From the sequence record NC_100327.1: a DNA stretch of 64,000 nucleotides. The stretch is one strand, 5' to 3'. Made by a program: the position numbers and the translations under genes. Of the stretch, positions 49,124 to 61,865 are shown piece by piece. The DNA is from a phage. Position 1 is the stretch's first letter; each line of letters begins with the position of its first letter. The notes under the pieces were generated by a model that was not told where the DNA came from, did not search any database, and was given only the letters and a program-made list of their open reading frames with translations.

Positions 49124-49183
49124 AGGTAAATGTGAATCAGGTTTAAATAAATAGCTTTCAACTTCCAATATTAAGGATTTCTC

Positions 49184-50230
49184 ATGAATTTAACACCTCG
49201 CAGCACCATGGTACACGGCATGAAAGAAAAACAGAACGGTTTCGAACCTATGAGTAATAAAATGTTTGGTATGCCGGGCGGTATCATGGAAACATACAGC
49301 TACCCAACACCTGTTGTTGACCACGTTCTTTATATCGACGATTTGGAAGACCTGCAGGATCATATGTCTCGTCTGCAGACGATCCGTATGGCTCAGCCGG
49401 AAGAAAGCATTCGGGTGATCATCAATAGCCCTGGTGGTTGCGTGCACATTGCAATGGCTTATCTACAGGCATTCCGCGAGTCTCAGGCAAGCGTTGTTGC
49501 ACATGCTGAAGGGATGTGCTGCTCTGCGGGAACAATCTTATGGCTGGGTTGTAAAGAACGCACTGTGGCTCCGGACACAGAATTTATGTTCCACTACTAT
49601 CAAGGTGGCACTTATGGTAACGGTGTGAACATGAATACTCAGGTCAGCTACTGGAAAAAACGTTTTGAACGCCTGATCGAAAAATACTACGGTGGGGTGC
49701 TGACAGAAGATGAGATCGCATCCATCACAGCTGGTGGTGAAGTGTGGTTGGACGGAGAGGAGCTGGCAGCTCGAACTGGAGCCATCATTCTGGATGAAGG
49801 TAACATACAGCGCATCCAGAACGGACAAAAACCTAAAAAGCTTCTGGCAAAAGGTGATGAAGGCGTGTTAGGTGAAGCAGGTCTTCCTGAGATTCACCAG
49901 TGCACCTCTTTAGATGAGCTAGTTCATGCTGTTGAATCTGCGAAAGCGGTTGGTTCGAAAGGTGATGTTCACACTGTGTTCCTAAATCTGCAGATGGAAA
50001 GTGGTGAGACCATTAAGATTGCCTTAGGTGAGATTACCTCAGAAGATCTGCAGCGATTCTCTGTCGTTGAACTTCAAGACATTCTGTCCCAATTGAAGAC
50101 AACCCTGAACGGCGGTGAAGAGGTTAAGGTAAAAGATAAGACTCGCAAGCGTCTGGTGGACAATATTATTAAAACAGCAAAAGAGCTCAATGAAAAAATC
50201 CTGGGTGCAGGAATTGTCGAAGAAGCTTAA
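49184..50230 (+). CDS. ClpP-like (S14-family) serine peptidase with ~150-aa C-terminal extension
   Basis: 348 aa, ATG with AAGGA RBS; INSPGG, CCSAGTILWLG (Ser) and FMFHYYQGG (His) align with ClpP catalytic regions. Confidence 0.7.
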   Translation: MNLTPRSTMVHGMKEKQNGFEPMSNKMFGMPGGIMETYSYPTPVVDHVLYIDDLEDLQDHMSRLQTIRMAQPEESIRVIINSPGGCVHIAMAYLQAFRESQASVVAHAEGMCCSAGTILWLGCKERTVAPDTEFMFHYYQGGTYGNGVNMNTQVSYWKKRFERLIEKYYGGVLTEDEIASITAGGEVWLDGEELAARTGAIILDEGNIQRIQNGQKPKKLLAKGDEGVLGEAGLPEIHQCTSLDELVHAVESAKAVGSKGDVHTVFLNLQMESGETIKIALGEITSEDLQRFSVVELQDILSQLKTTLNGGEEVKVKDKTRKRLVDNIIKTAKELNEKILGAGIVEEA

Positions 50231-50242
50231 ACATTAATTCTA

Positions 50243-50268
50243 AAGCCCTCTTCGGAGGGCTTTTATGA
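50243..50268 (+). terminator. rho-independent terminator
   Basis: AAGCCCTC-ttcg-GAGGGCTT followed by TTAT. Confidence 0.65.
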
Positions 50269-50281
50269 TCTGGAGATTTGC

Positions 50282-50815
50282 ATGACTTGTGCTAGAAAAC
50301 CTGATGAACAACGTAACGCTTACGATGAGTATGTGACACCGGAGTGGTGTGCAGAAGGGCTGTATGACCTTATTCCGTTCCCAGAAGACTGGACCTATTT
50401 AGAGCCTTGCAGGAATAGTGCCTCAGGTGTGTTCTACTCACGTATGCCGTTAGGATCTGCATGGGGAGAAATCCAAGAAGGTGTTGACTATCTGAATACA
50501 GAATACAACCATGTTGACTGTATTATCACCAACCCACCATACAGTTTGGCTCGTGAGTTTGTAGACAAGGCGTTGAAAGATGCTGACGTAGTTATTATGC
50601 TTTTGCGTCTTAATTTTCTGGAAAGCAAAGCCAGATTTGAATGGTGGCTTGATAATGCACCTACCACTGTGATCACAATATCTAAGCGTCCATCTTTTCA
50701 ATCAAATGGCAGAACTGACGGGCAAGCATATGCATATTTTGTCTGGGATAAGAAAAACCGTTTAGACTTGCCGCCATTTATGTGGTTGGCACCTCCAGAG
50801 GTAGACCTGAAATGA
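50282..50815 (+). CDS. small phage-type N6-adenine DNA methyltransferase
   Basis: 177 aa, ATG with GGAG RBS; motif IV DCIITNPPYS. Confidence 0.65.
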   Translation: MTCARKPDEQRNAYDEYVTPEWCAEGLYDLIPFPEDWTYLEPCRNSASGVFYSRMPLGSAWGEIQEGVDYLNTEYNHVDCIITNPPYSLAREFVDKALKDADVVIMLLRLNFLESKARFEWWLDNAPTTVITISKRPSFQSNGRTDGQAYAYFVWDKKNRLDLPPFMWLAPPEVDLK

Positions 50816-51096
50816 AAATGAGTGCTAAGGACAAATTACACCAGTTAGCGCTAAAACGTCCTGTAACGCTTCCTGACGAGCTTAACTCTATTTATGATGC
50901 GATTGTAGGGGAGATACAAAATAAAGCGTTAGCAGGCTTTCTGGGGTGCGGATTTTCGATAAATCTACCATCGCATCTCTCAGATTACTTCCCGCACATT
51001 GTTGGAGATTTAAGGGCAGGAGGTCTGCAGGTAGATGTTGTTGGCATCTCCCCAGAGAAAAATAATACGGTTGCCTACTTGACAGTAACCTGGTAG
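50812..51096 (+). CDS. hypothetical protein
   Basis: ORF track 50782..51096; ATG overlapping upstream stop (ATGA). Confidence 0.45.
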   Translation: MKMSAKDKLHQLALKRPVTLPDELNSIYDAIVGEIQNKALAGFLGCGFSINLPSHLSDYFPHIVGDLRAGGLQVDVVGISPEKNNTVAYLTVTW

Positions 51097-51132
51097 TTGT
51101 GTATTGTTGTTTTCAACAAGAGGGGGTCATTT

Positions 51133-51372
51133 ATGTACAAGTCATTTTCAATCTACTCAAGACAGTCGAAACACTACACAGAGATCCTGATCACTCAGAA
51201 AAAATCTGTGGAAGGTGAGTGGGAATATCACCATAAAATGTTGCGTCCAGACTGGGTTTTTGATAGACTTATTGCTATGATCCCTCTCGGAGAAGTATAC
51301 CCTCTGACAGCCCATCGCGATGCTTGGGATTTAATTGATTACATAGATTCATTTAAGGAGCCTAGATTATGA
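51133..51372 (+). CDS. hypothetical protein
   Basis: ORF track 51097..51372; ATG (MYKSFSIY) with GAGGGGG RBS. Confidence 0.45.
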   Translation: MYKSFSIYSRQSKHYTEILITQKKSVEGEWEYHHKMLRPDWVFDRLIAMIPLGEVYPLTAHRDAWDLIDYIDSFKEPRL

Positions 51373-51770
51373 AGATTGAGATTACTAAAGAAGGTAAGAA
51401 AGTGTCCGGCAACTATGCAACAGTAATTCGGGATTTAATGTTTGAAGCCACCAAGATCGGTACATCTAAAGTTGGTCAAACTGTTAGTGTGCAAAGTAAT
51501 ATCGCCACAGGAGAGAAGGTATTCATTGTGGTCAAAGGGCAGGATCCTGTGGAAGGAACAGTGGGCCGAGGAGGTTACCTGTGCATTTCTGAAGAGCCTC
51601 GTATGCTAGTGGCTGACTCCGCTACTATAGGTGGGAAACGTGTGTGCGAGGCGGATGAGGTGATGATTATCCAGCCTGTTGACCCAGATGATCCAGCAAC
51701 TTGGGTGGTAGGAAATGAAATCTTCTCTTTAGAAGAGTTATCCTTCCTAGCCCCGCGCTCTGTTCAGTAA
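51369..51770 (+). CDS. small-protein paralog family A member (longer form)
   Basis: 133 aa, ATG with AAGGAG RBS; shares MKIEIT start and KVFIVVKGQD motif with family. Confidence 0.5.
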   Translation: MKIEITKEGKKVSGNYATVIRDLMFEATKIGTSKVGQTVSVQSNIATGEKVFIVVKGQDPVEGTVGRGGYLCISEEPRMLVADSATIGGKRVCEADEVMIIQPVDPDDPATWVVGNEIFSLEELSFLAPRSVQ

Positions 51771-51809
51771 TAATTTATCTTACCAGGGACGGTAGAAGCA
51801 GGAGGTAGC

Positions 51810-52043
51810 ATGAAAGTTAAATTTCTTACAGATTTAGGGTACCCTTCCTTGGTTGACTGTGTTGGTAAAATTGTGGAAGCAAAACGGCTATCTGCAAACG
51901 AGAATGTTGTCCTGGTTAAAGGGAAGGATTTACTAGCTGCAGGTGCAGAGTCTGGCAGGATCTCTCCTGATTATATGTATTACCTATCTTTAAGTAATCT
52001 GCCAGAGCGAGGCGGTAAAGGCCTTGAAGTTGTGGAGGGGTGA
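51810..52043 (+). CDS. small acidic protein, paralog family A
   Basis: 77 aa, ATG with AGGAGG RBS; MKVKFL...VVLVKGKDLLAAGA. Confidence 0.55.
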   Translation: MKVKFLTDLGYPSLVDCVGKIVEAKRLSANENVVLVKGKDLLAAGAESGRISPDYMYYLSLSNLPERGGKGLEVVEG

Positions 52044-52048
52044 CAGGT

Positions 52049-52573
52049 ATGCTTCTGATTAACTGGGAAGACCTCTATGGGGACAAAGACCCTGTTGCGT
52101 TTGTTGATCGTAGGTGGAGATACACTGAAGAACAACTGGCGGCAAAAAATTTAACTGCAAAACGCAGAAAGATCATCCAGTGCAAGTACAAATACGCACA
52201 GTTTGCTGCAAAAGTGTCTCCACAAATCGAGAGCTTTGTGCTTAAATTGTATGACGAGTACCTCAAATTCAAATTGGATTTTGTACAGGTGTACCGTGCA
52301 CAGATACGACCAGATACCAACATATGTAGATGGAAGGTTGTTTGTGACGGTAAAGATTTGCCGCTCAGCTTGACAATTGAGTGGCGTTATGGGTATCATG
52401 AGTGTGGTCTGTATGATATTTGGGATGTCATTGTAGATCCTGCTAAGCATCTGAACACAGAGGAGCTGGAATATATCAATAAGGTTATTCTCGATATGTT
52501 TTTCAGCTACACCCATGAAAACTCTGAGAAAGAACGGGATAATTTTCTTGACACCCTCAGTTGCCATTTGTAG
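52049..52573 (+). CDS. hypothetical protein
   Basis: ORF track 52040..52573 (GTG); ATG at codon 4 after GGAGGGG. Confidence 0.5.
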   Translation: MLLINWEDLYGDKDPVAFVDRRWRYTEEQLAAKNLTAKRRKIIQCKYKYAQFAAKVSPQIESFVLKLYDEYLKFKLDFVQVYRAQIRPDTNICRWKVVCDGKDLPLSLTIEWRYGYHECGLYDIWDVIVDPAKHLNTEELEYINKVILDMFFSYTHENSEKERDNFLDTLSCHL

Positions 52574-52576
52574 TAT
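52548..52576 (+). promoter_or_regulatory. sigma70-type promoter
   Basis: TTGACA - 17 nt - TAGTAT. Confidence 0.5.
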
Positions 52577-52603
52577 ACAATTTAACCTACAAAGGGAGGA
52601 CCA

Positions 52604-52840
52604 ATGAGTATAAATGTTGTGCTAATAGGTTACCTGGTAATGTCCGTTATAACAGCGGTATTCTTGACAGGTGTATGCATCGTGTCCAGACGAAGGGTGA
52701 AGTTTGAGGATTTTATCACCATCATCACTGCTGCACCTTTTTGGCCTGTTGTTATCTTCATCGTGATAATGTGCCTTGTTGATTACTACAAGAATATCCG
52801 TAAGGAGAAAAAGGAGGGTAGGGATGGAGACCGCACCTAA
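52604..52840 (+). CDS. small membrane protein (two predicted TM helices)
   Basis: 78 aa, ATG with GGGAGG RBS; hydrophobic segments VVLIGYLVMSVITAVFLTGVCIV and FWPVVIFIVIMCLV. Confidence 0.5.
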   Translation: MSINVVLIGYLVMSVITAVFLTGVCIVSRRRVKFEDFITIITAAPFWPVVIFIVIMCLVDYYKNIRKEKKEGRDGDRT

Positions 52841-52976
52841 AACTGTTTATACTGTTCTTAAAGAGATTGCGTTCTACGCAGATCTTAGCCAGGCACCTTT
52901 ATGGGAAAAGAGCATGTATTTAAAATGGTGCGTTAATTTAGGGAGGCCTTCCAGTGTTTCAAGCCATGTTTATTGA
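52824..52976 (+). CDS. hypothetical small protein
   Basis: ORF track 52776..52976; ATG (METAPKT) with AAGGAGGG RBS. Confidence 0.45.
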   Translation: METAPKTVYTVLKEIAFYADLSQAPLWEKSMYLKWCVNLGRPSSVSSHVY

Positions 52977-53073
52977 GATGCTATCTGGGGTATTGTTACT
53001 GGTAGCCATCTTAGGTGGTGCAGTTCTGATGTATAACTATCTTGAAAAAGGAGACAGCAATGGTAAAAAATAA
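52954..53073 (+). CDS. hydrophobic micro-peptide (candidate)
   Basis: Found by hand; GTG after GGGAGG; ...MFIEMLSGVLLLVAILGGAVLMYNYLEK... Confidence 0.3.
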   Translation: MFQAMFIEMLSGVLLLVAILGGAVLMYNYLEKGDSNGKK

Positions 53074-53245
53074 ATCTTTAGAGCAGGCTGAAAACCTTCT
53101 CCACGAGCTGGTAAAGGAGTGGAAAGTTGAATACTCAGATTTTAATGCACGAGAGGGTGAAGATTATTGGCCTACGGAGCGCTCAGAGGGCGAATGGTAT
53201 CAAGATTTTATAGAGTGGTTATATCAGACGTGCGATGAGGGGTGA
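53060..53245 (+). CDS. hypothetical small acidic protein
   Basis: ORF track 53042..53245; ATG at codon 7 with AAGGAG RBS. Confidence 0.45.
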   Translation: MVKNKSLEQAENLLHELVKEWKVEYSDFNAREGEDYWPTERSEGEWYQDFIEWLYQTCDEG

Positions 53246-53247
53246 CG

Positions 53248-53712
53248 ATGTTTGTTAAATATGTAAAAACGTGCCTCAACAGTCTTGGCAGAGAGCATTG
53301 GTACACCTTGCTTGAAAAAGGGGAAATTTTAACAAAATCTGGAAAGATAACTTTGATACCTCTTGATAGTAAAGGTAAAGACCCGTCACGACTTGTTATA
53401 GATGATTACGTTACAGGTGTGACGTTCGAGGTCTCTGTGGAGAGGTTAATACGCAGAGCTGGCGGCCCTTATGACCGAAGAGAGTATGTTTTCGATTCCG
53501 TTACAGAGATGGGGGAGCATCCGTCTTTAATGTTCAGGATGGTAATCAGAGATATGAGGTCATCTATAGATAGGATCGTAAAGGACATTAAGGAACCTTT
53601 TAGAGTAAAAGTTAAGAAGTTTTTCGATTCTAAGATTAACATACTCGCCGTTGCACTAGGTGTAGTTCAACTTCTGTTAATTTTGCACTATTTTGAACTA
53701 CTATTTAAGTAG
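53248..53712 (+). CDS. C-terminally membrane-anchored protein
   Basis: ORF track 53242..53712; ATG at codon 3; C-terminal hydrophobic helix ILAVALGVVQLLLILHYF. Confidence 0.5.
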   Translation: MFVKYVKTCLNSLGREHWYTLLEKGEILTKSGKITLIPLDSKGKDPSRLVIDDYVTGVTFEVSVERLIRRAGGPYDRREYVFDSVTEMGEHPSLMFRMVIRDMRSSIDRIVKDIKEPFRVKVKKFFDSKINILAVALGVVQLLLILHYFELLFK

Positions 53713-53774
53713 TAGTTGAGATATGGCACAAAGGATGTGCCATAGTGAAATAAACTAAGAAAGAGGTAGAGAGA

Positions 53775-54122
53775 ATGCCAAAGATTAAAACGTTATTACT
53801 GTGGGTAGCTGTTTTAGCTTTTATAGGGTACTGGACTTGGGAAACTGAATTAAAAGATATCGGATATACCAGTCTTGAGAGCAAGGCGTGCATTGGCATA
53901 ACCGATGCGTTCAGGCAAAATGCTATGGATCACGAATGTGTTGATGCAGATATAGATGAGAAACTGTCTAAGGACAAAGATTTTTACCATGGGCATGCTT
54001 TACTTGATAGTGGTGACACTGTAGAGTTCTGGTCGTGGTTTCGTGAAGATGGAACAATAAAAACAGCAGTAAAGATTTCTAACAAAGAGTTAATGCTGTT
54101 GCAGCAAAAGGAGGCTCAATGA
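53775..54122 (+). CDS. N-terminally anchored membrane/periplasmic protein
   Basis: 115 aa, ATG with AGAGG RBS; N-terminal TM LLLWVAVLAFIGYW. Confidence 0.5.
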   Translation: MPKIKTLLLWVAVLAFIGYWTWETELKDIGYTSLESKACIGITDAFRQNAMDHECVDADIDEKLSKDKDFYHGHALLDSGDTVEFWSWFREDGTIKTAVKISNKELMLLQQKEAQ

Positions 54123-54406
54123 TTTGGATATCCTATGCTGATGGCACCATGCTGTATACTGCAGGTACCAGATATGAAGTTCAGGAGAACGATAAAAAAT
54201 TTATCGTAAAAACATTTGACAAGGACGACAACCTTTTGCTAGAATTGACTTACAAAGTTGGAGAGGTATCCAATATCCAGTTGGATTGTGGTCATAAAGA
54301 TAATTCACTCAAAAAACCTGGAGTAGGTAAGGCTTCAGAAGAACGTCTGTCTCGTATTGCAGAAAGCGTTTCTCCCCAAAAATCTAAGAAGAGGACTAGA
54401 AAATGA
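54119..54406 (+). CDS. hypothetical protein
   Basis: 95 aa, ATG with AAGGAGG RBS. Confidence 0.5.
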   Translation: MIWISYADGTMLYTAGTRYEVQENDKKFIVKTFDKDDNLLLELTYKVGEVSNIQLDCGHKDNSLKKPGVGKASEERLSRIAESVSPQKSKKRTRK

Positions 54407-54597
54407 AAAACTTACGTTTTAACACTTATTACTACAACACATTGAATGATTTGTATTATATTGTTCGAAGTAAAAGTCCTGAAACAGTCCTATTCTGCCG
54501 CGAACCTTTCAAAGGGGAGGAAGTAGAGTCTGAGATGAATGTTAGCCAGATCACCTCTTTGTTGCTCTCAGGCGCAATGGAAGAAGCAATATTCTAA
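54403..54597 (+). CDS. hypothetical protein
   Basis: 64 aa, ATG overlapping upstream stop. Confidence 0.45.
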   Translation: MKNLRFNTYYYNTLNDLYYIVRSKSPETVLFCREPFKGEEVESEMNVSQITSLLLSGAMEEAIF

Positions 54598-54615
54598 ACC
54601 AGGCGGGAGGGTTTT

Positions 54616-54801
54616 ATGAAGCACTATTGCCTGTCTGGTAGAATGGGTGCAGATTGTGATTGGGTTTTCTTAAAACTTGTCAGCATTCGAGAGTTCATCC
54701 CAGAGGAAGAGCAAGAAAGCGAGCTGATGTCATGGATCAACCATTACGGTAACACTTTTCGGCATGTTAAGGTAGAAGAGTTGCCAAGCGAGGCTGATTG
54801 A
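54616..54801 (+). CDS. hypothetical protein
   Basis: 61 aa, ATG with GGGAGGG RBS. Confidence 0.45.
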   Translation: MKHYCLSGRMGADCDWVFLKLVSIREFIPEEEQESELMSWINHYGNTFRHVKVEELPSEAD

Positions 54802-54803
54802 CT

Positions 54804-54893
54804 ATGATTGCATCAATATTAACGTTTATGGGTGGCGTGGCATTCGGATTCATTGTTTGCCTGTTTATAGTGATTATGTCTATGCGAGGCTGA
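54804..54893 (+). CDS. hydrophobic micro-peptide (29 aa, candidate)
   Basis: Found by hand; MIASILTFMGGVAFGFIVCLFIVIMSMRG; begins 3 nt after upstream stop. Confidence 0.3.
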   Translation: MIASILTFMGGVAFGFIVCLFIVIMSMRG

Positions 54894-54896
54894 ATT

Positions 54897-55193
54897 ATGA
54901 AACTTTTTGAGTGGTTTAAAAAGTTTAAATATAAAGCTGTAGCCATCGTGCCGTGGTCCATTCAGTGGGTTGATGAAGGTGGTCTACCGATACCTGGTGA
55001 CAAAGATACTGGGTACTGGATTATGATGGAGAACGGGTTTGGAAAGCGAAAGTATACGTGCACAAACTCTACTCGATCTGCACTTAATAGAGTGCCTGGT
55101 TACAAACTTATGGTTGTGTGGAAAATGTCAGGCGTGCCTCCAGCCAATGCTCAATTTCTTACTGACAATCCTACCACGGTAGAGGGAGATTGA
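54897..55193 (+). CDS. hypothetical protein
   Basis: 98 aa, ATG with GAGG RBS. Confidence 0.5.
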   Translation: MKLFEWFKKFKYKAVAIVPWSIQWVDEGGLPIPGDKDTGYWIMMENGFGKRKYTCTNSTRSALNRVPGYKLMVVWKMSGVPPANAQFLTDNPTTVEGD

Positions 55194-55195
55194 TA

Positions 55196-55477
55196 ATGAA
55201 AAAGATTAACAGTAGTGAAGTCGAGTTTAAACTTGTCGGAAAAGGCACTTACTGGGAAGTTCGTCAAAAGGTATATTTGTTCGGTCTTATTCCTTACTGG
55301 TCTAAATTCTACTGGGGAGCTAACGAGTGGGGAAGATACGCCACCAAATCAATGGCACTTATTGGTATAGCAGAGTACATTGCAGCCAGAGATAGGGTTG
55401 GAGACACTTATTACTATACTGCGGACGATATTCGTAACAGTGTTTACGTCCCACAACCACCTGATGGAGACCGTTGA
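55196..55477 (+). CDS. hypothetical protein
   Basis: ORF track 55190..55477; ATG at codon 3 with AGAGGGAG RBS. Confidence 0.5.
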   Translation: MKKINSSEVEFKLVGKGTYWEVRQKVYLFGLIPYWSKFYWGANEWGRYATKSMALIGIAEYIAARDRVGDTYYYTADDIRNSVYVPQPPDGDR

Positions 55478-55701
55478 TGAAAGTTAAAGTTTTAGATTCA
55501 AGCTTCTATATTGGTCAGGAGCCCTTAGTGGGGAAAGTGTTTACTGCTGTCCCTAACGAAGATTACCCCGACCTTTTAAAAATAAAAGGGGCAGATCTTA
55601 TTGCCGCTGGTGCATCTCAGGAATGCTTTGACAGTCAGTGGACCTACAACTTTGCCCTAGGTGAGGATGTAGAGATAGTGGAGGACAATCATGAAGGTTA
55701 A
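55477..55701 (+). CDS. small acidic protein, paralog family A
   Basis: ORF track 55474..55701; ATG; MKVKVLDSSFYIGQ...LLKIKGADLIAAGA...DVEIVED. Confidence 0.55.
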   Translation: MKVKVLDSSFYIGQEPLVGKVFTAVPNEDYPDLLKIKGADLIAAGASQECFDSQWTYNFALGEDVEIVEDNHEG

Positions 55702-55945
55702 AATTCTTGATTCTAACGTCTACTTGGGACAATCCTTCCTGAAGGGAAAGGTCGTTCCTGCGGTATACTTTGAAGGGTTGCCGTGGGATGATCCTGTTCG
55801 GCAACATCACAGTTATGTAGGCCACAACGTAGTGTTTATCTTAGGAGCAGACCTGATCACCGCTGGTGCACCTGAATATTATTTCGGGGAAGAGTCCTAT
55901 TATGCCTTTGGGGTAGGGTCAGATGCAGATATTGTAGAGCTGTGA
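55691..55945 (+). CDS. small acidic protein, paralog family A
   Basis: 84 aa; MKVKILDSNVYLGQ...VVFILGADLITAGA...DADIVEL. Confidence 0.55.
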   Translation: MKVKILDSNVYLGQSFLKGKVVPAVYFEGLPWDDPVRQHHSYVGHNVVFILGADLITAGAPEYYFGEESYYAFGVGSDADIVEL

Positions 55946-55957
55946 TGGGTAACCGTT

Positions 55958-56356
55958 GTGAAAAATAAACTGTTCAAAGTTACAATGAAAATTCGCGGAG
56001 CTTGGAGCATAAAGCAAGGGCGTATTCCAGAATTTGAGAAAGACTTCTACGTAGTCTCCACCTCGGAGGAGGCTGCATGCTGGCAAGCTGGCTATGCCTA
56101 TGCAAGAACCTGGTACGAAGGATACCAGACTGGGGGCTATGACGGAGAAATTATCAGCAAGGGTGTAGAAGAAATTAATGTGTTGACAAGTGAAAAAGTT
56201 TTTGTTATAGTGCATCCAGATTCCAGAGTGAAGCATTACTGGAATGCCAGAACAAAAACTTGGACACCGTTTGCAGATTCTGCTACACCACTTTTAAACC
56301 AGAAAGCTCTTGACTCTGTCCCGAGCTATGGGGTTGTTGAAGAAAAGCTAAACTGA
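55958..56356 (+). CDS. paralog family B protein (~130 aa)
   Basis: GTG start; C-terminal region HPDSRVKHYWNARTKTWTPF parallels 58163..58558. Confidence 0.5.
   Translation: MKNKLFKVTMKIRGAWSIKQGRIPEFEKDFYVVSTSEEAACWQAGYAYARTWYEGYQTGGYDGEIISKGVEEINVLTSEKVFVIVHPDSRVKHYWNARTKTWTPFADSATPLLNQKALDSVPSYGVVEEKLN
56183..56211 (+). promoter_or_regulatory. sigma70-type promoter inside coding sequence
   Basis: TTGACA - 17 nt - TATAGT. Confidence 0.4.
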
Positions 56357-56373
56357 AACAGTGGGGTACTAAC

Positions 56374-56664
56374 ATGATGGATTTAGTTCTGGACACTGAT
56401 AACACCGGAGCGTTTAAAAAGGATGGTGTAACAAGCGTTGACCAATCCTTCCCTGCCAAGATTGACTCAAAATGGACCTACAAGTTTGATGGAGAGATCT
56501 TCGCAAATGATGAGAAGGTTGTAGATGCTGCAGCCATTTTGAACGCTCTAGGGTACGACCCTGTGAATTCTTTGATCAAGGATCCTGTTGAGTTTGCAGA
56601 GTATGTTCGAAAAATGGCAGATCTTGCTGTGGATATTTTAAAAACTATCGACAACAATCTGTAA
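56374..56664 (+). CDS. hypothetical protein
   Basis: 96 aa, ATG with GGGG RBS. Confidence 0.5.
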   Translation: MMDLVLDTDNTGAFKKDGVTSVDQSFPAKIDSKWTYKFDGEIFANDEKVVDAAAILNALGYDPVNSLIKDPVEFAEYVRKMADLAVDILKTIDNNL

Positions 56665-56670
56665 AAACTG

Positions 56671-56699
56671 TTGACACAACGCTTCAGATTTAGTATCAT
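56671..56699 (+). promoter_or_regulatory. sigma70-type promoter
   Basis: TTGACA - 17 nt - TATCAT. Confidence 0.6.
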
Positions 56700-56746
56700 T
56701 GTTTTCAAAGAGGGTTTGGTTCCCTCTTCTTTAAAAGGAACACGTT

Positions 56747-57064
56747 ATGCAAATTGAAATCACTGGCAACGTAGAAATCACTGAAGGTATGGTGTCTTTC
56801 ATTTCCCACAAAATGTCTAAGCTGGAGCGTTTGCATCCCTCTGCCAACTATGCACGTGTGAGTGTAAAAGTTGAAAATGATCACCAGGAAGTTATGGCGT
56901 TCATTTTTGACAATTCTGGAAAAGAAGTTATTGCCAAAGCTAAAGGCAGTGATGCTTACGAGGCAACTGACCGTATGGTAGATGTTGCAGCACGTCAGCT
57001 GGCTAAATGCGGTGGAAAGAAAGGTAAGGGGAAAGGCAAAGTAAAGATTGACTTTGGAGAATGA
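56747..57064 (+). CDS. ribosome hibernation factor-like protein (HPF/RaiA/YfiA family)
   Basis: 105 aa; MQIEITGNVEITEG...KLER...VKVEN...AKGSDAYEATDRMVDVAARQLAK parallels E. coli HPF as recalled; Gly/Lys-rich tail. Confidence 0.7.
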   Translation: MQIEITGNVEITEGMVSFISHKMSKLERLHPSANYARVSVKVENDHQEVMAFIFDNSGKEVIAKAKGSDAYEATDRMVDVAARQLAKCGGKKGKGKGKVKIDFGE

Positions 57065-57073
57065 GGTGCTACA

Positions 57074-57175
57074 ATGGGTGTGATTAAGAAATTAGTCCCA
57101 AATGTAGAGATTGCATGCTTTGAAATTATGTTTGCAATCGCAGTTGTAGTTAATGTGTTAGGTTACGGCTATTAA
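57074..57175 (+). CDS. hydrophobic micro-peptide (33 aa, candidate)
   Basis: Found by hand; ATG after GAGGTG; MGVIKKLVPNVEIACFEIMFAIAVVVNVLGYGY. Confidence 0.35.
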   Translation: MGVIKKLVPNVEIACFEIMFAIAVVVNVLGYGY

Positions 57176-57201
57176 TATCAAATAATTGAGGAGACCTCTA
57201 A

Positions 57202-57471
57202 ATGAAAATTAAATTATTCAAAACTGAGCTGGCAGACAAAAACTGTGGACTGGTTGAAGGTATGATTGTCGAAGCACAACCAGTTGACTATATGAAGGTG
57301 GTTCGTGATGCCCTGGGTGAAGGTTTTGATCTGATGGAGCCAGCTCTGCGAGAAGATGTTATCGAGATGGCTAAAAAGCACACACCTGAAGGCATGGTGG
57401 TGTTTGTTGCACCGGGTAACGGAGAAGAGTTGATTGTAACTCCGGATGTGTATGAGATTGTAGAGGAATAA
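57202..57471 (+). CDS. small acidic protein, paralog family A
   Basis: 89 aa, ATG with GAGGAG RBS; MKIKLFK...MVVFVAPGNGEELIV...EIVEE. Confidence 0.5.
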   Translation: MKIKLFKTELADKNCGLVEGMIVEAQPVDYMKVVRDALGEGFDLMEPALREDVIEMAKKHTPEGMVVFVAPGNGEELIVTPDVYEIVEE

Positions 57472-57492
57472 CCCTGCTTGGATTAGCATACT

Positions 57493-57515
57493 TCCTCGAT
57501 AAGGAAGGTTTGTAA
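57493..57515 (+). terminator. hairpin terminator
   Basis: CTTCCT-cgata-AGGAAG followed by GTTTG. Confidence 0.4.
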
Positions 57516-57562
57516 TTATTTGTGGGAAAGGAATCCCAATCTCTTACCAGAGGTGATACTAT

Positions 57563-57826
57563 ATGATTGTTTATTTTAAAACTTCAGGTGGATACCCTGA
57601 TTCTCAAAGCTTGATCGGAAAAACGTGCACAGCATACTCACCTCTTGATGAGGAGGTAGGCGATATTCTACGAAATATGTATCGGATTGATCCTCAAGAA
57701 GCTTTTGATCAAAACCTTGTATTTGTCAAGGGCTCAGACATGAAGTCTTTGGGAGCATTCCCTGAAGCAGATGATGATGCCGTTTATTCGTTCATGACCC
57801 CTTTTGAAGCTATGGTTGTTGGGTGA
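57563..57826 (+). CDS. small acidic protein, paralog family A
   Basis: 87 aa, ATG with AGAGGTG RBS; LVFVKGSDMKSLGAF motif. Confidence 0.5.
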   Translation: MIVYFKTSGGYPDSQSLIGKTCTAYSPLDEEVGDILRNMYRIDPQEAFDQNLVFVKGSDMKSLGAFPEADDDAVYSFMTPFEAMVVG

Positions 57827-57830
57827 TAAT

Positions 57831-58163
57831 ATGAAAGTACGCTTTATTGGTGAAACAATTCCTGTGCATCTCCGGTCTCCTGAGGATTCTGCAGATCTTG
57901 CATCTCAAAAGGCGAGAGGTTATGATAAGAAAGTAACCTCAACCGATGTAGTGCTTGAGGCTACCAGTCTACCTGACCCTGCTGCATTCTTTAATCATTA
58001 TGGGTACTATTTCAGCAATCTGATGAATATCGGTGAGCTTGTGTTTATTAGTGGTGAAGAGATTGTTAGCAAGCTTGGCGGCGATCCAGATGTCTTTCAT
58101 GAAACCTGTCCTTTTGCATTTGTGGTAGGTTCAGATGTGGAAGTTATTGAGGAGGTGCGGTAA
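57831..58163 (+). CDS. small acidic protein, paralog family A
   Basis: ORF track 57804..58163; ATG (MKVRFIGE) with GGGTGA RBS; LVFISGEEIVSKLGG and VGSDVEVIEE motifs. Confidence 0.5.
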   Translation: MKVRFIGETIPVHLRSPEDSADLASQKARGYDKKVTSTDVVLEATSLPDPAAFFNHYGYYFSNLMNIGELVFISGEEIVSKLGGDPDVFHETCPFAFVVGSDVEVIEEVR

Positions 58164-58558
58164 TGGTAAGCCTATACCGTGTTGAGTATAGCTCAGATAC
58201 TGTATACAACGTAAGAAGCAAAGATCGCAGCGACAGAGTGCAAGAAATGTATGTTCTTGCCGACAGTCCGTTATCTGCAGCGTTCAAGGCAGGGGCTCTT
58301 GCATCTCGTTGGAAATTTGAAGGGGGATCTTTCTATGAAGAAACCCTTGAAGATTCTGTTGTTATTTCTTCTGTAGAGGTTTCAGACGACTACGAAGGGA
58401 AAAAGTTCGTAATGCGGCACCCACACAGCAACATTGCGTACTACTGGGATGTTCTGAACAACGAGTGGACCCCAGATCTTCAGAAGGCTACTGTGCTAAC
58501 ACCGTTTTTGGCAGATAAGTTCCCACCAGAAGGTAATTTATCCGCACTGTTTCAGTAA
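58163..58558 (+). CDS. paralog family B protein (~130 aa)
   Basis: 131 aa, ATG with GGAGGTG RBS; HPHSNIAYYWDVLNNEWTPD parallels 55958..56356. Confidence 0.5.
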   Translation: MVSLYRVEYSSDTVYNVRSKDRSDRVQEMYVLADSPLSAAFKAGALASRWKFEGGSFYEETLEDSVVISSVEVSDDYEGKKFVMRHPHSNIAYYWDVLNNEWTPDLQKATVLTPFLADKFPPEGNLSALFQ

Positions 58559-58576
58559 TTTTCTTGCACACAGGTG

Positions 58577-58605
58577 TTGACAACTCCAACCCTGTGTGAA
58601 ATAAT
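58577..58605 (+). promoter_or_regulatory. sigma70-type promoter
   Basis: TTGACA - 17 nt - AATAAT. Confidence 0.5.
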
Positions 58606-58637
58606 ACCTTCATCTTAACAAGACAGGAGACCGATTG

Positions 58638-58895
58638 ATGAAGATTAAATTGAAAAACCTTGAAACGGCAGAGATTCAGGACGGTGTTGATTTCCGTTCT
58701 AAAGATGGTGACATCTTAGAGGTAAATATTCCAACCTACGAGCTGATTAAAGGTTTTGGCAACGTTCCGGAAGAGGATATTACAGAAATTCTTATGATGT
58801 TGATTCTTGACGGAACTGTGTTTGTAGGTGAAGGTGAGAACGCTATTGCAATCCCAGGCCATTTTTATGAAGTAGTTGACGAAGAGGTGCTGTAA
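58638..58895 (+). CDS. small acidic protein, paralog family A
   Basis: ORF track 58635..58895; ATG; MKIKLKN...TVFVGEGENAIAI...EVVDEEV. Confidence 0.5.
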   Translation: MKIKLKNLETAEIQDGVDFRSKDGDILEVNIPTYELIKGFGNVPEEDITEILMMLILDGTVFVGEGENAIAIPGHFYEVVDEEVL

Positions 58896-59246
58896 ATGAA
58901 AGTAGAAATTACCGGTTTTGATGTGAATGTGGTTCCGGAAGATATTTTAGCTAAACTTCCAGAAGGTTTTGGTAACGGCGTTGTGGTGGATGCTGTTCCT
59001 CCTACCAAAGACATTCTGCTGCAGTATGGTGTAGCAGAGGAAGATGTCGATAAAGTTCTTACAATGATGGCAATCGATCGTGTTGTCGTTGTTAAAGGTC
59101 TCGATAATTTTGAGAGTGATCCCCTGATTATTCGTGGAGATGACTACAAAATCATCGATAATGAAGGCCAAGAGTTCTATGAGCCTTGTGCAGAAGATAT
59201 TCTTAACTTATTACTGGAAGCAGGCACCGAAGAGGAGGACGAATAA
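58896..59246 (+). CDS. small acidic protein, paralog family A (divergent)
   Basis: 116 aa, ATG with GAGGTG RBS; MKVEIT...RVVVVKGLDN...; Glu/Asp-rich tail. Confidence 0.45.
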   Translation: MKVEITGFDVNVVPEDILAKLPEGFGNGVVVDAVPPTKDILLQYGVAEEDVDKVLTMMAIDRVVVVKGLDNFESDPLIIRGDDYKIIDNEGQEFYEPCAEDILNLLLEAGTEEEDE

Positions 59247-59575
59247 TGAAGATTGACCCGTTACTGAAGGCTCGTGCAGAAAAAGCGTACACCATTAAGT
59301 TGACCAACCTGGTTCCTACTTGTCATCCGGATGTAGGTTGGCCCGAAGGTTTGGTGGAGGGAACTGTAACAGCTGCATACCTTCCTAACATCAAATACCT
59401 TATGGAAATCTTGGAGCTGGATGAGGAAACTGCAGAACAGTTCCAGTTGGATATGAAACAAAGTGGGACTCTGGTTATTCACGGGTGGTACAATACTAAA
59501 GATGCAGAAGACCCTCTGGTAACTTCTAATCTGGCATATGAAATCTTAGGACCTTTGAACCTGGAGAAAGACTAA
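59246..59575 (+). CDS. small acidic protein (family A-like)
   Basis: 109 aa, ATG with GAGGAGG RBS. Confidence 0.45.
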   Translation: MKIDPLLKARAEKAYTIKLTNLVPTCHPDVGWPEGLVEGTVTAAYLPNIKYLMEILELDEETAEQFQLDMKQSGTLVIHGWYNTKDAEDPLVTSNLAYEILGPLNLEKD

Positions 59576-59862
59576 TGAAAGATCTGGTTAAGATTAAGAT
59601 TAAAGATACCAATGGAGAACTCAGTCATTTTGGAATTAATGATGGTGACGAGCTGATCGCACACCTGCCTACCAAGGAAGTTGTAAGCAAAGCAGTTGCC
59701 GGAGAAGAAGATGCAATGCAGGCTGCAGGTGTGGATGAAAACTATGTAGCCATGTGCATGTGCCGAGATCAGGTTGTTCTGTATAAAGCGTATCGACCAA
59801 ACGGAGCCACGGAGTGGCTTGTATTCCGACCCGAAGGATATGAAATCTTAGAGGCACTATGA
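59575..59862 (+). CDS. small acidic protein (family A-like)
   Basis: 95 aa, ATG with GGAGAAAG RBS; MKDLVKIKIK start. Confidence 0.45.
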   Translation: MKDLVKIKIKDTNGELSHFGINDGDELIAHLPTKEVVSKAVAGEEDAMQAAGVDENYVAMCMCRDQVVLYKAYRPNGATEWLVFRPEGYEILEAL

Positions 59863-59951
59863 TAAATCTTGCCAAGGTTGCAACGGCACTGTTAATTATT
59901 TGCTGGTCTGTAACCTTAACACTGTGTCTTGTATTTCAGTGAGGTGCTTGT

Positions 59952-60215
59952 ATGAACATCCTGATGTGGGTTATAGCAGTGGCGTTTGTTGCATGTTTTT
60001 GCTGCTGGGTTGCGGTGAGGATTTCTGTAGCTACCCTTCGGAAGTTGGGGTTCTCAGAATGGGATATTAATATCCTTTCTTTTCGCAATGAAACAATCTC
60101 AGCCGCCCTGCTTTGTAAGAAATTCAAGTGGGAACCTTGTGAGGTCATGAGCTATCTAAGAACAGGCGATATCCCTGAAAGATTTAAAAAAGTTCTTGAC
60201 GGCAAGGATAAATGA
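59952..60215 (+). CDS. small membrane protein
   Basis: 87 aa, ATG with GAGGTG RBS; N-terminal TM ILMWVIAVAFVACFCCWVAV. Confidence 0.5.
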   Translation: MNILMWVIAVAFVACFCCWVAVRISVATLRKLGFSEWDINILSFRNETISAALLCKKFKWEPCEVMSYLRTGDIPERFKKVLDGKDK

Positions 60216-60243
60216 CAGTATAGTGACTAACAAGAGGTGAGGA

Positions 60244-60384
60244 GTGACTGATTTTACTGAAGCTTTAATGATGGCCTTGTCTGTTTTAGCGCTATCGGTG
60301 TGTTTTGGGGCGTTATTCACATCTCTGGTTAAAGTTTTACATACAGTATTATTACCCAAGGAGCGCAGTAATGACGAAGATTGA
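60244..60384 (+). CDS. hydrophobic micro-peptide (46 aa, candidate)
   Basis: Found by hand; GTG after AAGAGGTGAGGA; ...MMALSVLALSVCFGALFTSLVKVL... Confidence 0.3.
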   Translation: MTDFTEALMMALSVLALSVCFGALFTSLVKVLHTVLLPKERSNDED

Positions 60385-60622
60385 CTTGAATGCTGGCGAC
60401 CATGTTGTTGTCAAATGCATCGGAGATTATCTTGGATTCACAATCGGCAATACTTACGAGGCGGTAGTGGCGAAGGTTTATCATGATAAAGTCCTCAGTC
60501 TTGTATTTGACTGCGATGATGATGGAGATGACCGATACGTCTGTGAGGTGCTGGCACGAGACGACAGTGAAGACCAGAAATTCCTGGTTATTGAACTGAA
60601 CGGTATTTTTGTAGAACGTTAA
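60371..60622 (+). CDS. hypothetical acidic protein
   Basis: ORF track 60305..60622; ATG (MTKIDLNAG) with AAGGAG RBS. Confidence 0.5.
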   Translation: MTKIDLNAGDHVVVKCIGDYLGFTIGNTYEAVVAKVYHDKVLSLVFDCDDDGDDRYVCEVLARDDSEDQKFLVIELNGIFVER

Positions 60623-60650
60623 TTTAAAACAACATAAGGAGACTCTTACT

Positions 60651-60956
60651 ATGGCTAAATCTAAAGTTGAACTGTTCACCTCTCTTCCTTCTGACACTGC
60701 AGAGCGTGATCGCCTTCGCAAGACAATCGAAGAACTGGTGGAACTCCAACTTCAGATTAAAGATCTGAAAGATGCCATTAAGGATATCATTCTCGTTGAG
60801 AAGCAGGATCACCTGTATTCTCCTAAATTCATCAAATCTCTGGTGGCTACCGAGTTCGATATTCGCTATGAGGCTGAAAAACGTCGAGCTAAAATCGAAG
60901 AAGAGGTTGAGCACATGTCCGAGGCAGACATTCTGTTCAAACGCTCTGTAGAATAA
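60651..60956 (+). CDS. hypothetical coiled-coil protein
   Basis: 101 aa, ATG with AAGGAGA RBS. Confidence 0.5.
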   Translation: MAKSKVELFTSLPSDTAERDRLRKTIEELVELQLQIKDLKDAIKDIILVEKQDHLYSPKFIKSLVATEFDIRYEAEKRRAKIEEEVEHMSEADILFKRSVE

Positions 60957-60966
60957 TGACAAATAG

Positions 60967-60992
60967 AGGGGCTTGGGCCCCTCTTTTTACTA
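60967..60992 (+). terminator. rho-independent terminator
   Basis: AGAGGGGC-ttg-GGCCCCTCT followed by TTTTACT. Confidence 0.65.
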
Positions 60993-61011
60993 TCTATGAA
61001 GGAGATTTGAG

Positions 61012-61344
61012 ATGGGTATACCGATCACTGTAAAAGAATTGAATGAACGTGATGCAGGTGGTCTATGGCCTGCACGAAAAATACGCTGCATCCGTATGAA
61101 AGAGAACCTTGAGCATCTTGAGCAACAGAAACGGATTGAGGTTGGTGATATTTTCGAAGTATTTTATTCTGATCGCCGTAACTGGGAAACCATTCAACCT
61201 TCCGGTTTTGTTCTTGCTAAGCTTGACACTGGAGAAGTGATTGTTCCTGGGTTGGATATTGTCTTCGAAATTATCCAGGAGTGGGATCCGGACAAGATTA
61301 GATACGAAGAGCTATTCGGTGAAGGTATTATCAAACCTGTGTGA
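61012..61344 (+). CDS. hypothetical protein
   Basis: 110 aa, ATG with GAAGGAGA RBS. Confidence 0.5.
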   Translation: MGIPITVKELNERDAGGLWPARKIRCIRMKENLEHLEQQKRIEVGDIFEVFYSDRRNWETIQPSGFVLAKLDTGEVIVPGLDIVFEIIQEWDPDKIRYEELFGEGIIKPV

Positions 61345-61352
61345 GGTGGATT

Positions 61353-61652: not shown

Positions 61653-61669
61653 CAAAATATCAAATTTAA

Positions 61670-61700
61670 GACACCTAGGACGCTCTGTGGCGTCCTTTTC
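61670..61700 (+). terminator. rho-independent terminator
   Basis: AGGACGC-tctgtg-GCGTCCT followed by TTTCTTT. Confidence 0.55.
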
Positions 61701-61865
61701 TTTATCTGGTGCACGATTGCATACCTTGGGCAGTTAATCTCATTACAGAGCGTTTAAGAGCTCCCTACAAACAACTCCATATTTCGAGCGTAGCGAGAAC
61801 GCACGTCCGTTTTGACCCAAATCACCATACGCTCGGATTTTAACCAAACCCTCGCGGCGTTTCTG

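What the first reader, a model, noticed from the sequence alone, without database searches (positions are those of the whole stretch)
51369..59862. Expanded family of at least ten paralogous small acidic proteins in the early region, including a tandemly duplicated three-gene cassette
ORFs at 51369, 51810, 55477, 55691, 57202, 57563, 57831, 58638, 58896, 59246 and 59575 encode 75-135-aa acidic proteins with similar N-termini (MKVK/MKIK + hydrophobic) and a recurring core (VVLVKGKDLLAAGA, LLKIKGADLIAAGA, VVFILGADLITAGA, LVFVKGSDMKSLGA, KVFIVVKGQD) and acidic ends (DVEIVED, DADIVEL, VEVIEEV, EIVEE). Blocks 55477-56356 and 57563-58558 look like a duplicated cassette of two family-A genes plus one family-B gene. 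Diversified arrays of small acidic early proteins are typical of host-takeover or anti-defence repertoires, and I do not recognise this family. Together with the RNA-repair island, this is the best candidate for an undescribed system.
Basis: seen in the sequence. Interest (0 to 1): 0.75.

Follow-up and report, generated by a model that had tools for sequence, protein, structure and literature searches.

The report
Two duplicated small phage protein families
An rV5-like E. coli phage carries two separate five-gene families of small acidic proteins, plus a duplicated third gene; they are real, conserved genes of unknown function, but they are not one ten-member family and nothing yet shows they block host defences.

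Summary
The window is a Vequintavirus (rV5-like) coliphage, 99.7% identical to phage CarlMeissner.

They do not form one family. Profile tests give three groups:
- **A1:** 51810, 55477, 55691, 57563, 57831.
- **A2:** 57202, 58638, 58896, 59246, 59575.
- **B:** 55958 and 58163.

ORF 51369 belongs to none of them. Homology between A1 and A2 is not demonstrable (hhalign 1.5-41%, unstable). The duplicated A1-A1-B cassette is confirmed.

A1 models confidently (pLDDT 92) as an SH3-like five-stranded barrel. It belongs to a wider, uncharacterised ~70-aa family (PHROG 5009/13367, no Pfam) that has one or two copies in other phages, so five copies is a real expansion. A2 and B were found only in Vequintavirus and close relatives.

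All members are intact in nine genomes with dN/dS of 0.04-0.18, and all ten A1/A2 genes persist in a much more divergent relative. They are core genes under purifying selection, not a fast-diversifying repertoire.

Function is unknown. My best inference is that they are non-enzymatic protein-binding modules made early from sigma-70-type promoters. An anti-defence role is possible but unsupported.

The parts
51810..52043 (+). A1 member, 77 aa, pI 6.2 (rV5 ORF127)
   Evidence: PHROG 5009 E 8e-36. BLASTP to 55477 E 1.3e-6. hhalign 98.5%. Closest to the E. coli prophage homologues P0031/P0097.
55477..55701 (+). A1 member, 74 aa, pI 4.1; first gene of cassette 1 (rV5 ORF140)
55691..55945 (+). A1 member, 84 aa, pI 4.7; second gene of cassette 1, overlaps the previous gene by 11 nt (rV5 ORF141)
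   Evidence: 42% identical to 55477, E 2.5e-15. PHROG 5009 E 4e-32. Carries a ~14-residue insertion between strands 2 and 3.
55958..56356 (+). B member (B1), 132 aa from GTG (123 aa if ATG 55985 is used); third gene of cassette 1 (rV5 ORF142)
   Evidence: PHROG 7379 E 1e-73. 27% identical to 58163, E 2.4e-8; hhalign 94%. Two copies in every one of 118 Vequintavirus records. Replaced by an unrelated ORF in the divergent relative L019.
57202..57471 (+). A2 member, 89 aa, pI 4.4, detached from the array (rV5 ORF146); weakest membership
   Evidence: Leave-out A2 HMM E 0.0027, rank 1 of 725 segments. hhalign 49% to 59575 and 21% to 58638.
57563..57826 (+). A1 member, 87 aa, pI 4.1; first gene of cassette 2 (rV5 ORF147)
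   Evidence: Leave-out A1 HMM E 6.5e-5. PHROG 5009 E 1.2e-4. hhalign 70-84% to three A1 members. Its orthologue in Shigella phage CM1 is the second-best BFVD structural hit of the A1 model, TM 0.79.
57831..58163 (+). A1 member, 110 aa, pI 4.6, with two large loop insertions; second gene of cassette 2 (rV5 ORF148)
   Evidence: Leave-out A1 HMM E 4.3e-6. hhalign 95% to 55691 and 87% to 55477 over the C-terminal half.
58163..58558 (+). B member (B2), 131 aa, pI 4.7; third gene of cassette 2; its start shares 1 nt with the stop codon of 57831 (rV5 ORF149)
   Evidence: PHROG 7379 E 2e-66. Paralogue of 55958. Retained in L019.
58638..58895 (+). A2 member, 85 aa, pI 4.1; first gene of the four-gene A2 array (rV5 ORF150)
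   Evidence: AF2 model pLDDT 88.8, order strand-strand-helix-helix-strand-strand-strand. hhalign 85% to 58896 over 84 columns. Only one good BFVD match: Vibrio phage Vc1, 86 aa, TM 0.72.
58896..59246 (+). A2 member, 116 aa, pI 4.05, with an acidic C-terminal extension (rV5 ORF151)
   Evidence: BLASTP to 58638 E 2.3e-4. hhalign 85% to 58638 and 81.5% to 59246.
59246..59575 (+). A2 member, 109 aa, pI 4.55 (rV5 ORF152)
   Evidence: Leave-out A2 HMM E 0.0086, rank 2 of 725 segments. hhalign 81.5% to 58896 and 34% to 59575.
59575..59862 (+). A2 member, 95 aa, pI 4.7 (rV5 ORF153/154, split by a frameshift in the rV5 record)
   Evidence: BLASTP to 58896 E 0.004. hhalign 39-49% to three A2 members. 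Intact in 8 of 9 genomes.
58577..58605 (+). Sigma-70-type promoter (TTGACA-17-TG-AATAAT) directly upstream of the A2 array
   Evidence: 11 of 12 consensus match. Annotated as P150 in rV5.
56671..56699 (+). Sigma-70-type promoter (TTGACA-17-TATCAT) between cassette 1 and the HPF gene
   Evidence: 11 of 12 consensus match. Annotated as P144 in rV5.
57048..57075 (+). Sigma-70-like site (TTGACT-16-TG-TACAAT) upstream of 57202 and cassette 2
   Evidence: 10 of 12 consensus match. Consensus match only.
55587..55617 (+). 31-nt stretch (GADLIAAGA motif) repeated at 55843-55873 with 81% identity; the recombination point that collapses the two genes into one hybrid
   Evidence: Repeat family D1. The 70-aa hybrid P0014 has the N-terminus of 55477 and the C-terminus of 55691, and was seen in place on contigs L020 and L021 from two samples.

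Best explanation
The region holds three old, lineage-specific gene families.
- A1: five genes encoding SH3-like five-stranded beta-barrels.
- A2: five genes encoding a strand-strand-helix-helix-strand-strand-strand domain.
- B: two genes of ~131 aa.

They arose by ancient tandem duplication, including one duplication that copied an A1-A1-B block (or an A1-B block).

Shown:
- The genes are real, conserved and under purifying selection.
- They sit behind consensus sigma-70-type promoters in tightly packed or overlapping gene runs.
- The A1 fold is modelled with high confidence.
- The only near-invariant A1 positions are Gly, Tyr and Phe core residues.
- The paralogues differ mainly by insertions of 0 to ~45 residues in loops around strands 1-3.

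Inferred:
- The proteins are stand-alone, non-enzymatic binding modules. They are acidic, so they are unlikely to bind nucleic acid.
- They are made by host RNA polymerase at the start of infection, and each binds a different protein partner, most likely a host protein, to modulate it.
- Adjacent A1 genes probably act together, because other phages fuse two or three A1 domains into one polypeptide.

I cannot tell whether the targets are housekeeping machinery (takeover) or immune proteins (counter-defence). Because these are invariant core genes, I lean slightly towards takeover.
For: - Paralogy and family limits.
- Real genes under constraint: all members are intact in 9 Vequintavirus genomes with dN/dS of 0.04-0.18. 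All 5 A1 and all 5 A2 genes are syntenic in a relative with only 29-74% amino-acid identity.
- No catalytic signature: the near-invariant columns are M1, Y11, G38, G45, Y57 and F59.
- Early-type expression: 14 plus-strand sites match the sigma-70 consensus at 10 or more of 12 positions, against 1 on the minus strand. rV5 annotates P144 and P150 at the same places.
- Real expansion: the wider A1 family has 45 cluster representatives at E<1e-3, with one or two copies in Proteus, Aeromonas, Pantoea, Morganella, Klebsiella and E. coli temperate phages, against five copies here.
- Tandem A1 domains occur within single proteins: P0107, P0108, P0128, P0129.
- Tight gene junctions: an 11-nt overlap, and 1-nt shared stop/start codons.
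Against: - No partner, phenotype or expression timing has been measured. 'Early' rests on promoter consensus and position only, and the rV5 paper places genes 82-163 in one long unit that also holds replication genes.
- A natural hybrid that replaces 55477 and 55691 with one gene is viable, and B1 is replaced in L019. Individual members are therefore dispensable or redundant.
- The A2 and B folds were not compared with the PDB.
Confidence: 0.5

Rival explanations
1. One reading: a counter-defence repertoire. Each small acidic paralogue inhibits or decoys a different bacterial immune system, for example as a DNA mimic or a direct inhibitor.
For: - The proteins are small and acidic, lie behind early-type promoters, and have no known function.
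- The wider A1 family is spread patchily over unrelated virulent and temperate phages, always among runs of small accessory ORFs. This is how many anti-defence genes are distributed.
- Multi-copy families are typical of immune evasion in large eukaryotic viruses (own knowledge).
Against: - The genes are core and syntenic in essentially all related genomes, with dN/dS of 0.04-0.18 and no presence/absence variation.
- Vequintaviruses are reported as exceptionally sensitive to restriction-modification (PMC8594841), to an EcCdnG CBASS operon and to KpAvs2.
- There is no Pfam match to Ocr, ArdA, Tad2 or similar families.
- The A1 fold is an SH3-like barrel, not a known DNA-mimic fold.
Confidence: 0.27
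2. The proteins serve the phage itself: small adaptors, chaperones or regulators for phage replication, transcription switching or assembly, with phage proteins rather than host proteins as partners.
For: - Invariant core genes under purifying selection.
- They lie in the same long plus-strand unit as replication and nucleotide-metabolism genes.
- Tight translational coupling suggests fixed stoichiometry.
- rV5 lacks recognisable late-transcription factors (PMC3606486), so unknown regulators must exist.
Against: - A1 relatives occur singly in very different phages, including temperate siphophages downstream of a Q-like antiterminator, which share no obvious phage partner.
- None was reported as a virion protein; only ORF133 in this region is marked as possibly structural.
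Confidence: 0.18
3. A1 and A2 are one superfamily after all: all ten are diverged copies of one five-stranded barrel, and A2 carries a helical insertion between strands 2 and 3.
For: - Both families have the same order of elements: an MK[IV]K strand, a G-x-hydrophobic-A strand, a variable or helical insert, a hydrophobic strand followed by Gly, and a terminal (Y/E)-E-I-V-E-E strand.
- hhalign of the wide A1 profile against A2 gives 41%, P 2.8e-4, with a collinear extension; reversed-sequence controls score 13-15 against 26.
- The MK[IV] start is found in 8 of 10 members against 3 of 39 other small ORFs.
- A1 members 57563 and 57831 carry their insertions at the site where A2 has its helices.
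Against: - hhalign gives 1.5%, 5% with a deeper A2 profile, and at most 4.3% for all 25 cross pairs.
- Neither family's HMM finds the other (E>2).
- Foldseek with the A2 model recovers no A1 member, and the two models share only two weak BFVD hits.
- The insertion-bearing A1 sub-profiles do not match A2.
Confidence: 0.3
4. The resemblance is only compositional (short acidic beta-rich ORFs), or some of the ORFs are not genes.
For: About 44% of the other small ORFs on this strand are also acidic. 51369 was wrongly included on the strength of a short hydrophobic motif.
Against: - Composition-corrected BLASTP gives E-values down to 2.5e-15.
- Leave-out HMMs rank the held-out members first and second of 725 segments.
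- Reading frames are conserved and dN/dS is far below 1.
- The AF2 models are confident.
Confidence: 0.02

Closest known systems
PHROG 5009 and related PHROGs 13367, 7345 and 8603 (viral protein clusters, function unknown)
   Same: Three A1 genes match PHROG 5009 at E<1e-32. 31 of 32 wider-family members match 5009 and 17 match 13367. This is the family A1 belongs to.
   Different: PHROGs files 57563 and 57831 in separate clusters (13920 and 13661). It says nothing about fold, copy number or function. There is no Pfam or NCBIfam model.
SH3-like small beta-barrels (KOW domains of Spt5/NusG, PsaE, SH3, Tudor-like and integrase C-terminal domains)
DNA-mimic anti-restriction proteins (T7 Ocr, ArdA, T4 Arn)
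   Same: Small, very acidic proteins encoded in an early-type region of the phage.
   Different: No sequence or Pfam match. The fold is a beta-barrel, not one of the Ocr, ArdA or Arn folds (own knowledge for those folds). The host genus is unusually sensitive to restriction-modification.
Multigene families of large viruses (T4 internal proteins; poxvirus and ASFV MGF families)
   Same: Tandem arrays of diverged paralogues of small proteins in a non-structural region, generated by duplication and unequal recombination. A natural hybrid gene was seen here.
   Different: Those families vary in copy number between strains and evolve fast. Here copy number is almost fixed and selection is purifying. 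This is an analogy from own knowledge, not homology.

Membership tests
   Within A1, eight of ten pairs score 70-99%. Within A2, seven of ten pairs score 21-85%. All 25 A1-A2 pairs score 4.3% or less. The HMMs do not cross-detect. 51369 matches nothing.
   The order of secondary-structure elements is compatible, but Foldseek with the A2 model finds no A1 member. No direct model-to-model superposition was possible.
PHROG 5009 family (A1) | Significant full-length match to the profile | tested here: met
   E-values are 8e-36, 3e-38 and 4e-32 for 51810, 55477 and 55691, and 1.2e-4 for 57563. 57831 joins through my own leave-out HMM at E 4e-6.
SH3-like small beta-barrel fold | Five-stranded barrel superposable on SH3, KOW or PsaE domains | tested here: met
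KOW / NusG-Spt5 family | Match to the KOW sequence motif or Pfam model | tested here: not met
   No Pfam hit at E<=1 for any member.
DNA-mimic anti-restriction proteins (Ocr, ArdA) | Homology to the Ocr or ArdA families | tested here: not met
   No Pfam hit. No PDB sequence hit with the family profiles.
DNA-mimic anti-restriction proteins (Ocr, ArdA) | The phage is protected from restriction | not testable with these tools
   Literature only: Vequintavirinae are 'exceptionally susceptible' to restriction-modification systems (PMC8594841), which speaks against this role.
Known defence-system components (PADLOC) | Match to a defence protein model | tested here: not met
   No hit at E<=0.1 for ten proteins.
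Duplicated A1-A1-B cassette | The same three family types in the same order, twice | tested here: met
   55477, 55691 and 55958 against 57563, 57831 and 58163. No nucleotide similarity remains between the two cassettes, so the duplication is old.
Fast-evolving accessory (arms-race) gene set | Presence/absence variation and raised dN/dS among close relatives | tested here: not met
   All members are present in 9 of 9 genomes, with dN/dS of 0.04-0.18. 114 of 121 records cover at least 80% of the region. Exceptions: the hybrid gene, B1 replaced in L019, and a 52%-identical allele of 58638 in phiWec189.

The most novel reading that the evidence does not exclude
The two A1-A1-B cassettes and the A2 array could be an undescribed host-manipulation toolkit. 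In this reading, each small acidic barrel (alone, or as an A1-A1 heterodimer with B) is a specific inhibitor of a different E. coli protein, some of them immune sensors or effectors. The wider PHROG 5009/13367 family would then be a widespread, unrecognised class of phage-encoded inhibitor scaffold.
Probability: 0.2. Interest if true: 0.6.

Novelty: new member of a known kind. Interest (0 to 1): 0.38.

Why it matters
rV5-like phages are among the most often isolated coliphages and are used in phage-therapy and biocontrol cocktails, yet most of their non-structural genes have no known function. This work gives a short, well-defined list for functional screens: twelve of those genes reduce to three conserved families. 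One of them (A1) has a confident fold model and relatives in many unrelated phages. If the A1 barrel proves to be a general inhibitor scaffold, the result would carry over to many phages. If not, this is simply a tidy description of ordinary lineage-specific gene duplication.

Tried and rejected
- **Library scans.** Pfam, NCBIfam, PADLOC and PDB-sequence searches of all members and of the family profiles found nothing.
- **Uniting A1 and A2.** I tried shallow and deep profiles, a low alignment-greediness setting (-mact 0.05), global alignment, reversed-sequence controls, and sub-profiles of the insertion-bearing A1 members. The results were unstable (1.5%, 41%, 5%), so I rejected the link as unproven.
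- **Placing 51369.** I tried placing it in family B through the shared EKVF(I/V)(V/I)V motif. hhalign gave 0.2-2%, so I rejected it.
- **Placing 56374.** It shares only an 8-residue DS-x-WTY-x-F motif with 55477 and does not match the A1 profile, so it is not a member.
- **Further members.** I searched the rest of the window and the phage's other block of small genes (CarlMeissner 56-93 kb) and found none. CarlMeissner ~19-56 kb (structural genes) was not searched.
- **Giant-protein hits.** Hits of the A1 profile to proteins of 3,600-5,200 aa are summed weak matches to low-complexity repeats and are spurious.
- **Guilt by association.** Neighbours of wider-family members in six other phages and metagenomic contigs are only small unannotated ORFs or a replication module, so they gave no functional lead.
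- **Literature.** The rV5 genome paper does not mention paralogues or duplications. Papers that use Bas48 concern terminase, proteases or receptors, not these genes.

Full report
**What the window is.** The 8.5-kb region is 99.7% identical to Escherichia phage CarlMeissner (Bas48, Vequintavirus murica). It matches 121 phage records, and 114 of them cover at least 80% of the region. The region lies in the long plus-strand block running from about 24 to 62 kb of the window (GC-skew profile).

**Is the similarity real?** Composition-corrected all-against-all BLASTP of 30 local ORFs gave clear links:
- 55477-55691: 42% identity, E 2.5e-15.
- 51810-55477: E 1.3e-6.
- 55958-58163: 27% identity over 119 aa, E 2.4e-8.
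- Weaker chains join 57563 and 57831 to the first group, and link 58638, 58896, 59246 and 59575 to each other.

Leave-out HMM tests against all 725 six-frame segments of the window gave the following:
- A model built from 51810, 55477 and 55691 ranked 57831 (E 4e-6) and 57563 (E 6.5e-5) first and second; the next hit had E 2.4.
- A model built from 58638, 58896 and 59575 ranked 57202 (E 0.0027) and 59246 (E 0.0086) first and second; the next hit had E 0.24.

After I added orthologues from a divergent relative, hhalign within A2 rose to 85% (58638-58896, 84 columns) and 81.5% (58896-59246).

**One family or two?** The evidence does not join A1 and A2:
- hhalign of A1 against A2 gave 1.5% with shallow profiles.
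- With the wide A1 profile it gave 41%, but only over the N-terminal 28 columns. The extension was collinear and beat reversed-sequence controls.
- With a deeper A2 profile it gave 5%, and every one of the 25 cross pairs scored 4.3% or less.
- Sub-profiles of the insertion-bearing A1 members did not help.
- Foldseek with the A2 model found no A1 member.

Two features are shared by both families. The order of secondary-structure elements is compatible. The MK[IV] start occurs in 8 of 10 members against 3 of 39 other small ORFs. I therefore leave distant homology at about 30%, and report two families of five. ORF 51369 (PHROG 5748) belongs to none of them.

**The cassette.** 55477(A1)-55691(A1)-55958(B) and 57563(A1)-57831(A1)-58163(B) have the same family order. 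B1 and B2 are both in PHROG 7379, and all 118 Vequintavirus records carry two copies. No nucleotide similarity remains between the two cassettes, so the duplication is old. Because 55477 and 55691 are each other's closest relatives, there are two possible histories: an A1-B unit duplicated and A1 then doubled in each copy, or the two genes were homogenised by recombination. Recombination between them does happen. A 70-aa hybrid (N-terminus of 55477, C-terminus of 55691) replaces both genes on contigs from at least two samples, joined at the 31-nt repeat 55587-55617 / 55843-55873.

**Distribution.**
- Profile searches of 5.8 billion proteins returned only orthologues of the window's own genes for A1, A2 and B. 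The one exception was a 75-aa prophage or temperate-phage relative of 51810. It occurs in mEp013-like phages, downstream of a Q-like antiterminator, and in 26 of 5,426 complete E. coli genomes.
- An exhaustive HMMER scan with the A1 profile found 45 cluster representatives at E<1e-3. They define a wider family of about 65-80 aa with the pattern MKVKLLNDGGY...VGKVV-A...G-x-(E/D)-L-I-x-A-G-A...F...Y-x-F...E-x-E-I-I-E-E.
- This wider family matches PHROGs 5009 and 13367, all of unknown function, and has no Pfam model.
- In isolated phages it occurs once or twice per genome, in Proteus, Aeromonas, Pantoea, Morganella, Klebsiella and Citrobacter phages. Five copies is therefore a real expansion.
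- Some relatives carry two or three A1 domains in one polypeptide.

**Structure.**
- The AlphaFold2 model of 55477 has pLDDT 92.2. It has strands at residues 2-5, 21-26, 33-37, 56-61 and 65-69, and a short helix at 38-43.
- BFVD returned many uncharacterised small phage proteins at TM 0.7-0.87.
- The near-invariant columns of the wide alignment are M1, Y11, G38, G45, Y57 and F59. These are core residues, with no catalytic-looking polar set.
- The paralogues differ mainly by insertions of 0 to ~45 residues after strand 1 and between strands 2 and 3. In SH3 terms these are the loops that usually flank the ligand site; that mapping is my inference.
- The A2 model has pLDDT 88.8 and the order strand-strand-helix-helix-strand-strand-strand. 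Its only good structural neighbour is an 86-aa protein of Vibrio phage Vc1.

**Selection.** Across nine Vequintavirus genomes every member is intact, with one exception: the 59575 orthologue is frameshifted in the original rV5 record. dN/dS is 0.04-0.18, similar to the neighbouring genes. A metagenomic relative with only 29-74% amino-acid identity in these genes keeps all five A1 and all five A2 genes in the same order. It also keeps B2, but has an unrelated ORF in place of B1. These are old, core genes under purifying selection, not a rapidly changing repertoire.

**Expression context.** Fourteen plus-strand sites match the sigma-70 consensus at 10 or more of 12 positions, against one on the minus strand. 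Two of the best sit upstream of the HPF gene (56671) and of the A2 array (58577), where rV5 annotates P144 and P150. Gene junctions are tight: an 11-nt overlap, and several 1-nt shared stop/start codons. No transcriptome for this genus was found.

**Function.** Nothing in Pfam, NCBIfam, PADLOC, PDB sequences or the literature assigns a function.
- My best inference (about 0.5) is that these are non-enzymatic, acidic protein-binding modules, made early, that bind different partners. Neighbouring A1 genes probably act as a pair.
- Counter-defence (about 0.27) is possible. However, the genes are invariant, and the genus is notably sensitive to restriction-modification, to a CBASS operon and to KpAvs2.
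- A phage-internal role (about 0.18) is not excluded.

**Verdict.** The families are genuine and uncharacterised, but they are already clustered by PHROGs and annotated as hypothetical proteins in over a hundred genomes. There is no sign of a new kind of system. Interest is moderate.

Noticed in passing
window 56747-57064 (+): A ribosome hibernation factor homologue (Pfam Ribosomal_S30AE, E 1.8e-12) sits between the two cassettes behind its own sigma-70-type promoter. It is already described for rV5. In Mizuno et al. 2019 (PMC6375957) the expressed rV5 protein was detected in cell extract but not in the ribosome fraction.
   Followed up: partly
L020 2501-2713 and L021 2501-2713 (equivalent to window 55477-55945): In natural variants the two tandem A1 genes are collapsed into one 70-aa hybrid, apparently by recombination at a 31-nt repeat. 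The phages concerned have otherwise normal synteny.
   Followed up: yes
L019 8692-8982 and 11092-11388: In a divergent 128-kb metagenomic relative, B1 is replaced by an unrelated 96-aa ORF. An extra gene with Pfam PF27050 (Phage_P22_Y8K6) is inserted between B2 and the A2 array.
   Followed up: partly
window ~53242-55193; L004: Phage MaxBurger lacks this stretch (rV5 ORFs 133-138, including the 'possible structural protein' ORF133) but keeps every A1, A2 and B gene.
   Followed up: partly
window 56462-56488 versus 55628-55654: ORF 56374 shares a DS-x-WTY-x-F motif with A1 gene 55477 (27 nt, 78% identical, same frame) but does not otherwise match the A1 profile. It could be a recombination relic or chance.
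   Followed up: partly
L003 11201-11471 (equivalent to window 59575-59862): The original rV5 record splits this gene into ORF153 and ORF154 (70-aa product). The other eight genomes have an intact 95-aa gene, so this is probably a sequencing error or a strain-specific frameshift.
   Followed up: partly
search hits for the whole region: Eighteen records named 'Campylobacter phage' (MG0656xx, listed host C. jejuni) are 95-98% identical to these E. coli rV5-like phages. The host label looks doubtful.
   Followed up: no
window 58638-58895; hit H249 (phage phiWec189): Two of 118 genomes carry an allele of the first A2 gene below 60% amino-acid identity (52% in phiWec189), while all others are at least 88% identical. 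This may be a local allelic replacement.
   Followed up: no
L013 3247-3645 and 3980-4456 (Klebsiella phage phi1_175008); proteins P0107, P0108, P0129: The A1 domain also occurs as adjacent tandem genes with C-terminal extensions in a Stephanstirmvirinae phage. It occurs as two or three repeats within single polypeptides in metagenomic phages.
   Followed up: partly
window 48000-64000: Near-consensus sigma-70-type promoter matches show a strong strand bias: 14 on the plus strand against 1 on the minus strand at 10 or more of 12 positions. A strong bidirectional terminator-like hairpin lies at 60965-60984.
   Followed up: partly
window 55958 versus 55985: The start codon of B1 is annotated differently between records: GTG 55958 in rV5 and ATG 55985 in CarlMeissner. 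The first nine residues are conserved across 118 genomes and align with the N-terminus of B2, which favours the longer form.
   Followed up: partly
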